Origin: Eledone cirrhosa | Taxonomy: Eukaryota | Reading direction: 5' to 3' | Assembly: GCA_964016885.1 (NCBI GenBank) | Contig: OZ024746.1 | Coordinates: forward strand, 28,954,001-29,018,000 | Length of the DNA stretch: 64,000 bases | The notes under the pieces: generated by a model | What the model was told of the DNA's origin: nothing | The model's input: only the letters and a program-made list of their open reading frames with translations | Databases searched by the model: none | In this document: positions 20,341-22,817 of the stretch, in pieces | How the letters are laid out: each line of letters opens with the position of its first letter | How positions within the stretch are numbered: the first letter of the stretch is position 1 | Made by a program: the position numbers and the translations under genes

Positions 20341-20979
20341 ATACTTATTTATATACAAATACAATGAGAAAAGGGGTGCAACGAGAAATATGAGAGCATG
20401 GAGAGTATATATATATATATATATATATACATATCATAAATATATATGTATATTTATATATTTATATATACTTATATATATATATATATATATATATATA
20501 TATATATATGTATATATATATATATATATATATATATATATATATATATATATATATATATATATATATATATATATATATATATATATATATATATATA
20601 TATATATATATGTAAGTATGTGTGTATACGTACATACATATATGTATACAGACGTACAGTAGCATGCATATATATATATATATATATATATACATATATA
20701 CATACAGGTACACATACATATATGCACGTATCAGTTTAGCGGACGCTTATTATAACGCTGATACGTGCATATATGTATGTGTACCTGTATGTATATATGT
20801 ATATATATATATATATATATATATATGCATGCTACTGTACGTCTGTATACATATATGTATGTACGTATACACACATACTTACATTTAAGTGCCGTACTAA
20901 GAGTGAGAAATGAAATTTCGTTTTCATTTTATTTCAACTTATCGTTCTCGGTATGCCCGACCGACATAACTCACTCGAT

Positions 20980-20987
20980 ATGCAAAT
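20980..20987 (+). promoter_or_regulatory. Octamer ATGCAAAT, present in each family F monomer and in the 38.3-kb copy
   Basis: Exact POU octamer about 80 bp upstream of the HHR, followed by the palindrome GAAAGTATATACTTTC. Function is inferred. Confidence 0.45.
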
Positions 20988-21061
20988 TAGGCTGCTCAGC
21001 CGTTAATTTTCATAAGGAAAGTATATACTTTCGAACGTTCAACTATCTGGCAGATGGGTAT

Positions 21062-21104
21062 ACGGTGCTGATGATAGCTAACAAGCTTGAAACTAGTACA
21101 TCGT
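21062..21104 (+). ncRNA. Type I hammerhead, family F unit 1
   Basis: ACGGTG-CTGATGA-tAGCT aaca AGCTt-GAAA-CTAG-TA|CATCGT. 6-bp stem I, palindromic stem III (ACTAGT), GUA cleavage after 21098. Confidence 0.88.
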
Positions 21105-21535
21105 TCCTGTGTCAGTGTTGAACAAAAAGGTGACGTGGTTGCCTTAACACCGTATGGCATAACATTCAGGCTGTTCAGTTTGTTTACAAACGAACAAAGC
21201 GGCGTTATAATAAGCGTCCGCTAAACTGATACGTGCATATATGTATGTGTACCTGTATGTATATATGTATATATATATATATATATATATATATATGCAT
21301 GCTACTGTACGTCTGTATACATATATGTATGTACGTATACACACATACTTACATTTAAGTAAGTGCTGTACTAAGAGTGAGAAATGAAATTTCGTTTTCA
21401 TTTTATTTCAACTTATCGTTCTCGGTATGCCTGACCGACATAACTCACTCGATATGCAAATTAGGCTGCTCAGCCGTTAATTTTCATAAGGAAAGTATAT
21501 ACTTTCGAACGTTCAACTATCTGGCAGATGGGTAT

Positions 21536-21578
21536 ACGGTGCTGATGATAGCTAACAAGCTTGAAACTAGTACATCGT
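21536..21578 (+). ncRNA. Type I hammerhead, family F unit 2
   Basis: Identical to 21062-21104. Confidence 0.88.
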
Positions 21579-22005
21579 TCCTGTGTCAGTGTTGAACAAA
21601 AAGGTGACGTGGTTGCCTTAACATCGTATGGCATAACATTCAGGCTGTTCAGTTTGTTTACAAACGAACAAAGCGGCGTTATAATAAGCGTCCGCTAAAC
21701 TGATACGTGCATATATGTATGTGTACCTGTATGTATATATGTATATATATATATATATATATATATGCATGCTACTGTACGTCTGTATACATATATGTAT
21801 GTACGTATACACACATACTTACATTTAAGTAAGTGCCGTACTAAGAGTGAGAAATGAAATTTCGTTTTCATTTTATTTCAACTTATCGTTCTCGGTATGC
21901 CTGACCGACATAACTCACTCGATATGCAAATTAGGCTGCTCAGCCGTTAATTTTCATAGGGAAAGTATATACTTTCGAACGTTCAACTATCTGGCAGATG
22001 GGTAT

Positions 22006-22048
22006 ACGGTGCTGATGATAGCTAACAAGCTTGAAACTAGTACATCGT
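22006..22048 (+). ncRNA. Type I hammerhead, family F unit 3
   Basis: Identical to 21062-21104. Confidence 0.88.
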
Positions 22049-22817
22049 TCCTGTGTCAGTGTTGAACAAAAAGGTGACGTGGTTGCCTTAACACCGTATG
22101 GCATAACATTCAGGCTGTTCAGTTTGTTTACAAACGAACAAAGCGGCGTTATTATAAGCGTCCGCTAAACTGATACGTGCATATATGTATGTGTACCTGT
22201 ATGTATATATGTATATATATATATATATATATATATATATATATATATATATATGCATGCTACTGTACGTCTGTATACATATATGTATGTACGTATACAC
22301 ACATACTTACATTTAAGTAAGTGCCGTACTAAGAGTGAGAAATGAAATTTCGTTTTCATTTTATTTCAACTATATATATATATAAGTATATATAAATATA
22401 TAAATATACATATATATTTATGATATGTATGTATATATATATACATATATATATATATATATATATATATGCATATCATAAATACATATGTATATTTATA
22501 TATTTATATATACTTATATATATATATTTATATATACTTATATATATATATATATATATATATATGTATATATAAATATATAAATATACATATATATTTA
22601 TGATATATATATATATATATATATATATATATATATATATATATATATATATATATATATATATACATATCATAAATATATATGTATATTTATATATTTA
22701 TATATACATATATATATATATATATATATATATATATATATATACTTATATATATATATATATATATATATATATATATATATATATATATATATATATA
22801 TATATATATATATATAC

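What the first reader, a model, noticed from the sequence alone, without database searches (positions are those of the whole stretch)
20611..22370. Tandem ~470-bp hammerhead monomers: candidate retrozyme producing unit-length/circular RNA
Seen: three near-identical head-to-tail units plus a partial one, each with one intact type I HHR (ACGGTG-CUGAUGA-..-GAAA-CUAG-UA|CAUCGU). There is no meaningful ORF, a 5' inverted partial unit is present, and both flanks are (TA)n. A diverged copy at 38109-38620 changes only N7 and a loop II base within the ribozyme while the surrounding sequence differs much more, which suggests selection on the ribozyme. Established: metazoan non-LTR retrozymes and newt/schistosome/cricket satellite HHRs are tandem HHR monomers whose transcripts self-cleave to monomers that can circularise. 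Inference: this is such a family, copied from a circular RNA by a Penelope-type RT. The non-integer unit number with terminal redundancy fits rolling reverse transcription. I cannot confirm whether the family is already described.
Basis: partly seen in the sequence, partly recalled or inferred. Interest (0 to 1): 0.92.

Follow-up and report, generated by a model that had tools for sequence, protein, structure and literature searches.

The report
Octopus hammerhead retrozyme copied Penelope-style
This is a young copy of a very abundant, non-coding jumping repeat in an octopus-type genome that carries a self-cutting RNA motif and inserts in the pattern of Penelope-like retrotransposons: a new member of a known class (animal retrozymes) whose many copies make the copying mechanism unusually easy to read.

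Summary
Observation confirmed: 3.4 head-to-tail ~470-bp units (20758-22371), three intact type I hammerheads (HHR), a 5' inverted partial unit, (TA)n flanks. The family is huge: 13,001 exact HHR cores, control 0, in a 3.0-Gb octopod genome. The 38109 copy is a sister subfamily, not a decayed copy. Between subfamilies the HHR changes only at tolerated sites (4 of 43 columns vs 85 of 308; one stem I pair covaries); genomic copies decay neutrally. Insertions show the Penelope-like-element (PLE) signature: two fixed 3' ends about 63 nt apart, and 37 of 37 classifiable back-to-back insertions have one of each. Arms read through the cleavage site (69 crossings, 6 stops), so the template was a circle or an uncut multimer; I could not separate these. 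Cleavage, expression and circles are untested, and no autonomous partner with homologous ends was found. Verdict: new member of a known kind (non-LTR retrozyme); I found no cephalopod report. The scan noted a similar tRNA-bearing, ribozyme-less repeat in another genome (e1-7810660), not this family. Interest 0.45, not 0.92.

The parts
20406..20611 (.). left (TA)n target microsatellite
20612..20758 (-). inverted 5'-truncated arm; its 3' end is the tail-less end E1 running into (TA)n; shares 1 nt with the direct arm
20758..22371 (+). direct arm: 3.4 head-to-tail units ending at the tailed end E2
21099..21572 (+). predicted monomer 1 (474 nt, 36% GC), cleavage site to cleavage site
   Evidence: cleavage inferred from HHR consensus
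21573..22042 (+). predicted monomer 2 (470 nt)
21062..21104 (+). type I HHR 1: stem I 21062-67/21099-104, core 21068-74, U.U plus 4-bp stem II, GAAA 21089-92, palindromic stem III, GUA cleavage after 21098; stem I extends to about 21047/21115
21536..21578 (+). type I HHR 2, cleavage after 21572
22006..22048 (+). type I HHR 3, cleavage after 22042
20965..21045 (+). second conserved block upstream of the HHR, with ATGCAAAT at 20980-20987; function unknown (promoter or protein-binding RNA structure); repeated in each unit
   Evidence: no likeness to host U2 promoters
21228..21338 (+). long TA-rich hairpin just upstream of E1; repeated in each unit
22309..22371 (+). 63-nt PLE-type 'tail' between the two fixed 3' ends (E1 after about 22308, E2 at 22371)
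22372..22816 (.). right (TA)n target microsatellite
38109..38620 (+). separate insertion of a sister subfamily (~430-bp unit): inverted arm 38109-38238 plus direct arm with one intact HHR (38368-38410)

Best explanation
A non-autonomous retroelement of the animal non-LTR retrozyme kind. SHOWN (sequence): non-coding unit with one HHR; over 13,000 copies in several subfamilies; HHR conserved at the level of the templates; two fixed 3' ends, one per arm, into (TA)n; variable 5' ends that run through the cleavage site. INFERRED: a tandem locus with at least two HHRs (like this one) is transcribed; paired HHRs cleave as a dimer through the palindromic stem III, perhaps protein-assisted; the monomer is ligated to a circle (about 0.6 likely; otherwise partly cut multimers serve). 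A PLE RT/GIY-YIG protein supplied in trans cuts both strands of a (TA)n target and primes cDNA at two internal RNA sites ~63 nt apart, one per strand. The two cDNAs run on for a random length, past the HHR junction, and are joined back to back, giving an inverted arm plus a partial-tandem arm. Genomic copies then decay neutrally; a few arrays grow by local duplication.
For: Sample of 56 loci and 93 arms from the first 100 of 24,051 anchor hits: 82 of 93 arms end at E1 (35) or E2 (47), and 71 of these 82 run into TA. Of 33 back-to-back pairs, 26 have both ends classifiable and all 26 are E1+E2. In 25 young loci, 11 of 17 pairs are classifiable and all 11 are E1+E2. This matches the PLE tail and inverted copy (PMC8557442) and the two RT start sites of a PLE dimer model (PMC11167929). 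Both arms and all units share one haplotype: 3.2% and 3.6% discordance at diagnostic columns vs 48.8% between insertions. HHR: 4 of 43 columns vary between lineages vs 85 of 308 elsewhere (Fisher p 0.008); private substitutions 1.6% vs 2.1%. One stem I pair is G.U 35, U.G 22, A-U 11, U-A 1 in 69 motif matches, never unpaired. 69 junction crossings vs 6 stops near the cleavage site, 3.1 expected. Autonomous HHR-bearing PLEs with the same two-end pattern are abundant in the genome. An axolotl HHR with the same stem II U.U mismatch cleaves, better as a dimer (PMC7229834).
Against: No cleavage, RNA or circle data. No autonomous PLE with homologous termini in the loci examined. Only 3 of 82 arms exceed two units, fewer than a constant-hazard endless template predicts (KS p 0.043). 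Long local arrays exist and could supply linear multimers. 8 of 9 predicted Xenopus retrozyme dimers did not cleave in vitro. Rfam score is below threshold. Other blocks are as conserved as the HHR. Pair-count controls ignore relatedness, and the covariation rests on about three subfamily-level events.
Confidence: 0.8

Rival explanations
1. Same element and PLE helper, but copied from uncut or partly cut linear read-through transcripts of tandem loci; no circle. The HHR only trims transcript ends or acts late. This is a rival for one step, not for the class.
For: A PLE protein used unprocessed RNA and HHR mutants did not block insertion in vitro (PMC11167929). The monomer HHR misfolds in silico. 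5 of 82 arm 5' ends lie at unit positions 10-12, just after the cut. Deficit of arms over two units. Long arrays exist as possible sources.
Against: Within-insertion differences are mostly private (182 vs 14 shared, with no consistent unit order), whereas old arrays have units differing by up to 31 substitutions. No significant pile-up of 5' ends at the cut (6 vs 3.1). HHR conservation across subfamilies needs a role in propagation.
Confidence: 0.35
2. The units are merely pLTR remnants (5'-truncated ends) of an autonomous PLE that I did not find, with no independent life cycle.
For: Insertion anatomy is identical to PLEs. Xenopus retrozymes match pLTRs. Only a small share of 41,497 RT-like and 10,596 GIY-YIG candidate places was inspected.
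Against: Arms run from unit to unit through the whole cycle with no ORF sequence, up to 1.8 kb. 30 of 82 arms exceed one unit. No homologous ORF-linked ends in the PLE loci seen. The 100 listed of 475 variant HHR hits were all this family.
Confidence: 0.12
3. Ordinary satellite DNA or a MITE-like DNA element; the HHR is a dead passenger.
For: Some loci form long arrays with higher-order repeats. Two-arm insertions resemble terminal inverted repeats.
Against: Dispersed copies with random 5' truncation, asymmetric E1/E2 ends and arm lengths of 54-1,781 nt. Lineage-level HHR conservation with a covarying pair.
Confidence: 0.03

Closest known systems
Non-LTR retrozymes of animals (Cervera & de la Pena 2020, PMC7229834; read parts 2-4 of 6; supplement not readable)
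   Same: Short non-coding tandem repeats, one type I HHR per unit, GC under 50%, thousands of copies; mussel units 350-390 bp; axolotl HHR_Amex2 has the stem II U.U mismatch.
   Different: Unit 430-474 nt, longer than their 170-400 nt RNAs; mostly dispersed one- to two-unit, two-armed insertions in (TA)n; cleavage and circles not shown here; main text has no hit for 'octopus' or 'cephalopod'.
Retrozymes as non-autonomous PLE derivatives (Li, Clavereau & Pollet 2026, bioRxiv 10.64898/2026.07.22.740005; read parts 1-3 of 5; supplements closed)
   Same: Meets their 'active retrozyme' rule (two or more consecutive units with a complete HHR); co-occurs with autonomous PLEs.
   Different: They argue from co-occurrence and pLTR homology, mainly in vertebrates, and favour local amplification. 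Here pLTR homology was not found, and the link is the insertion footprint, showing dispersal by retrotransposition.
EN+ Penelope-like elements: Hydra, Neptune, Poseidon clades (Craig et al. 2021, PMC8557442, passages and Hydra section; Frangieh et al. 2024, PMC11167929, parts 1-2 of 4; Cervera & de la Pena 2014, PMC4209133, passages)
   Same: Partial tandems, inverted 5'-truncated copy, tail at one end, (TA)n targets, HHR with palindromic helix III, internal RT start at two sites.
   Different: No RT/EN ORF; tail ~63 nt vs 30-40 bp reported (the host's Hydra-like family has ~66-68 nt).
MRC1 and other non-autonomous Chlamys PLEs of Chlamydomonas (passage in PMC8557442)
   Same: Non-autonomous PLE with multicopy head-to-tail insertions.
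   Different: Those resemble their autonomous partners at the 3' end, and most Chlamys lack canonical HHRs.
Newt satellite 2 (class described in PMC7229834; its snRNA-type promoter is recalled, paper not held)
   Same: Tandem HHR monomers with weak helix III that cleave as dimers.
   Different: No sequence link tested; the unit's octamer-like motif has no match in the host's U2 promoters.

Membership tests
Non-LTR retrozyme | Short tandem repeat with a type I HHR in each unit | tested here: met
   7 of 56 sampled loci have two or more intact HHRs in one arm
Non-LTR retrozyme | No protein coding, no LTR architecture, GC under 50% | tested here: met
   (GC 0.36); PBS/PPT not searched separately
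Non-LTR retrozyme | HHR conserved as a structure | tested here: met
   below Rfam thresholds
Non-LTR retrozyme | Highly self-paired monomer | tested here: inconclusive
   whole unit z -8.1, but the half without the TA-rich hairpin gives z -1.3
Non-LTR retrozyme | Self-cleavage in vitro (monomer or dimer) | not testable with these tools
   needs bench assay
Non-LTR retrozyme | Expressed as linear and circular monomer RNA | not testable with these tools
   no RNA holder listed; only contigs of unknown type
Non-LTR retrozyme | Target-site duplication over 4 bp when present | tested here: inconclusive
   both flanks are (TA)n, so a TSD cannot be read
PLE-mobilised element | [quoted passage not shown] | tested here: met
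   82 of 93 arms; 37 of 37 classifiable pairs
PLE-mobilised element | Inverted 5'-truncated copy and partial tandem | tested here: met
   33 pairs in 56 loci
PLE-mobilised element | (TA)n target preference as in Hydra/Neptune/Naiad | tested here: met
   71 of 82 intact ends
PLE-mobilised element | Sequence homology to the pLTR of an autonomous PLE | tested here: inconclusive
   none in the loci seen, a small share of all PLE copies
Autonomous PLE | RT + GIY-YIG ORF | tested here: not met
   not filed as an autonomous PLE

The most novel reading that the evidence does not exclude
A viroid-like circular RNA with no sequence kinship to any host PLE that parasitises PLE machinery by structure alone. 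One RT dimer primes both strands of a (TA)n cut at two staggered sites on a single circle, so the genome records more than 10,000 products of rolling-circle reverse transcription with a strict one-tail-per-insertion rule. The family may still be active.
Probability: 0.3. Interest if true: 0.72.

Novelty: new member of a known kind. Interest (0 to 1): 0.45.

Why it matters
How retrozymes are copied, and why PLEs carry hammerheads, is still open: the PLE link rests on co-occurrence and homology, and the one in vitro PLE study found the HHR dispensable. This family gives a direct genomic footprint (two start sites, one per arm, one template haplotype per insertion) and shows selection on the HHR acting on templates rather than on genomic copies. 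With near-identical young copies and plentiful PLEs in the same genome, the circle-versus-multimer question becomes testable with one northern blot and one in vitro assay. It also extends the class to cephalopods (no report). By extrapolation from 56 loci per 100 hits it has about 13,000 loci, roughly 0.3% of the genome.

Tried and rejected
Rfam: no gathering hit. Expression: no RNA holder listed; contigs of 4 runs of unknown type were laid, with huge summed depth in one and none in another, uninformative on RNA. Pentamer-circle idea for a 12.6-unit array: units 2-6 equal 7-11 but the flanking units differ, so it is a local duplication; rejected. Hydra-like PLE flanked by two units (L061) as partner or composite: other copies of that family have their own ends and HHR, so these are independent nested insertions; rejected. 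In one search the output was cut and I saw 24 of 30 loci; 2 had unit hits. Neptune/Poseidon-like loci: 30 short and 20 long, with unit hits only as separate insertions or trivial matches of 25 nt or less. HHR hits spaced 4 kb apart on C2 as a possible tandem autonomous element: it is a long array of the unit; rejected. snRNA-type promoter: 4 host U2 upstream regions lack the octamer and match no better than shuffles apart from one of 16 comparisons at p~0.025; the U1 search gave no answer. First hand-drawn structure had two mis-registered helices (78.7% paired); the corrected one drew on RNAalifold and so leans towards itself. Earlier scan findings by sequence and by place: none. Repbase and Dfam could not be searched.

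Full report
OBSERVATION. The array is as described. TRF finds 3.4 copies of a 470-bp unit at 20758-22371. An inverted partial unit precedes it and (TA)n flanks both sides. Each full unit has one type I hammerhead: 6-bp stem I, CUGAUGA core, U.U mismatch plus 4-bp stem II, GAAA, a 2-bp stem III inside the palindrome ACUAGU, and a GUA cleavage triplet. Units differ by 0-3 substitutions once the TA run is collapsed, so the insertion is young. There is no credible ORF. Rfam does not reach threshold (HH9 18.6 bits), so the HHR call rests on consensus and conservation.

FAMILY AND HOST. The genome has 2,996 Mb. A host protein fragment beside one copy hits Octopus bimaculoides (76%) and Argonauta (71%) best, so the host is an octopod. 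A 35-nt HHR pattern has 13,001 exact matches and a 39-nt 3'-end anchor 24,051, with reversed controls 0. The window's subfamily has dispersed copies 96-100% identical in the full-length hits listed. The 38109 copy belongs to a ~430-bp sister subfamily, and further haplotype groups exist.

ANATOMY OF INSERTIONS. To avoid choosing copies by their HHR, I took the first 100 listed anchor hits (C1, 0-24.3 Mb), grouped them into 57 regions, dropped one duplicate (L116) and traced 93 arms in 56 loci. 82 of 93 arms end at one of two fixed points, E1 (35) or E2 (47), about 63 nt apart; 71 of the 82 run into TA repeats. 5' ends are spread round the unit, and arm lengths are 54-1,781 nt (mean 415). 33 insertions are two arms back to back. 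In all 26 where both ends can be classified, one is E1 and one is E2; 7 have one broken end. In 25 young loci (5 of 30 dropped as duplicates), 11 of 17 pairs are classifiable and all are E1+E2. 37 of 37 has a probability near 1e-11 under independent 50:50 choice. The window fits: left arm E1, right arm E2. This is the published PLE pattern of partial tandem, inverted 5'-truncated copy and tail at one end (PMC8557442, passages). It also matches the in vitro finding that a PLE protein, modelled as a dimer, cuts and extends both strands of AT-rich DNA and starts at two internal RNA sites that bracket the tail (PMC11167929, parts 1-2). Both arms and all units of an insertion carry the same haplotype (3.2% and 3.6% discordance at 71 diagnostic columns vs 48.8% between insertions), consistent with one template per event.

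SELECTION ON THE RIBOZYME. In 167 fragments, lineage-level variants occur at 4 of 43 HHR columns vs 85 of 308 other non-TA columns (p 0.008). The four are N7, one loop II base and both sides of one stem I pair, seen as G.U 35, U.G 22, A-U 11, U-A 1. Private substitutions are similar inside and outside the HHR (1.6% vs 2.1%). So selection acts on the RNAs that found new copies, not on copies at rest; 60 of 74 covered HHR sites are still intact. Caveats: a block upstream of the HHR with ATGCAAAT and the tail are about as conserved; the covariation is a few inherited events; the 98.3% pairing score comes from a structure partly fitted to the alignment, after a mis-registered first try.

CIRCLE OR MULTIMER. 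A cut linear monomer primed at E1 or E2 could give at most ~315 nt and no intact HHR. Yet arms cross the cleavage site 69 times and stop near it 6 times (3.1 expected), and 30 of 82 exceed one unit. The template was therefore circular or uncut. For a circle: within-insertion differences are private (182 vs 14 shared) and the HHR is under selection. Against: only 3 of 82 arms exceed two units (KS p 0.043; finite flanks may bias this), five 5' ends sit at unit positions 10-12, long arrays exist as possible linear sources, the isolated HHR prefers an off-pathway fold, and the PLE study found unprocessed RNA to be the main substrate. I put the circle at about 0.6. No RNA evidence could be had.

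HELPER. The genome is rich in PLEs. One family has an ORF with the DKT motif described for the Hydra clade (clade not tested by phylogeny; no Pfam hit; homologues). A search with its RT gave 41,497 first-look candidate places. It has its own HHR of similar design and two ends ~66-68 nt apart in (TA)n (15 and 9 of 30 loci; 6 lacked the 3' HHR). Neptune- and Poseidon-like GIY-YIG elements are also present (clade labels from recalled motifs). None showed terminal homology to the unit, so the helper is unidentified.

COMPARISON. It works like, and on every testable sequence criterion is, a non-LTR retrozyme (PMC7229834). Circular templates for PLE-type tandems were proposed in 2014 (PMC4209133, passages), and a 2026 preprint argues that animal retrozymes are non-autonomous PLE derivatives. 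That preprint also found cleavage in only 1 of 9 predicted dimers, a warning for this HHR. Searches for a cephalopod retrozyme found none; the O. vulgaris repeat annotation has no hit for 'ribozyme' in its main text. Unseen supplements and Repbase/Dfam may hold the family. An earlier scan note (e1-7810660) describes a similar TA-targeted tandem repeat with a tRNA instead of a ribozyme in another genome; I did not test it and it did not change my reading.

VERDICT. Real feature, new member of a known kind. Class assignment 0.8; interest 0.45, earned by the clean insertion footprint and the testable circle question rather than by novelty of the class.

Noticed in passing
window 5830-6056, 22901-23293, 37373-37723, 53518-53813, 29553-29756: Near-perfect palindromes; at least 5830-6056 and 22901-23293 carry HHR-like CTGANGA...GAAA motifs on both strands. 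Probably back-to-back 3' ends of other PLE-type families.
   Followed up: no
L197:5980-6920 (G000:C5:100.72 Mb): A second, unrelated 459-bp tandem unit with a long-stem-II type I HHR, inserted in (TA)n; 29 exact matches to a 52-nt probe, some in inverted pairs. The genome holds several retrozyme-like families.
   Followed up: partly
L061:5553-7770 (minus strand) and L066-L095: Abundant Hydra-clade-like autonomous PLE family with its own HHR and two fixed ends; not detected by Pfam. Some copies have open frames over 600 aa.
   Followed up: partly
L196-L213: Neptune-like PLEs with long open frames (up to 938 and 1,096 aa stop to stop), possibly recently active.
   Followed up: partly
L063/L064 (C1:149.8 Mb) and L228 (C2:60.58 Mb): The unit has grown locally into arrays with higher-order repeats (a 5-unit duplication; a ~4-kb period over at least 14 kb): a retroelement turning into satellite DNA.
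   Followed up: partly
window 20965-21045 and each unit: Conserved block with ATGCAAAT and a palindromic AAAGTATATACTTT; function unknown; no match to host U2 promoters.
   Followed up: partly
window 8048-13083: Broken LINE with ORF1-like and endonuclease/RT-like frames (L1/Tx1-like by recalled motifs).
   Followed up: no
window 19165-19570 and 25695-26114: Tandem pairs of a 203-bp SINE-like repeat in opposite orientations; likeness to octopus SINEs is recalled, not tested.
   Followed up: no
sample loci L099, L107, L138, L155: Four two-arm insertions whose E2 arm is only the 54-61-nt tail, as if the cDNA from E2 stopped at the E1 priming site on the same RNA (twin-priming-like).
   Followed up: partly
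G000:C3:307.35-307.45 Mb: Tandem array of U2 snRNA genes with a ~2.2-kb period.
   Followed up: no
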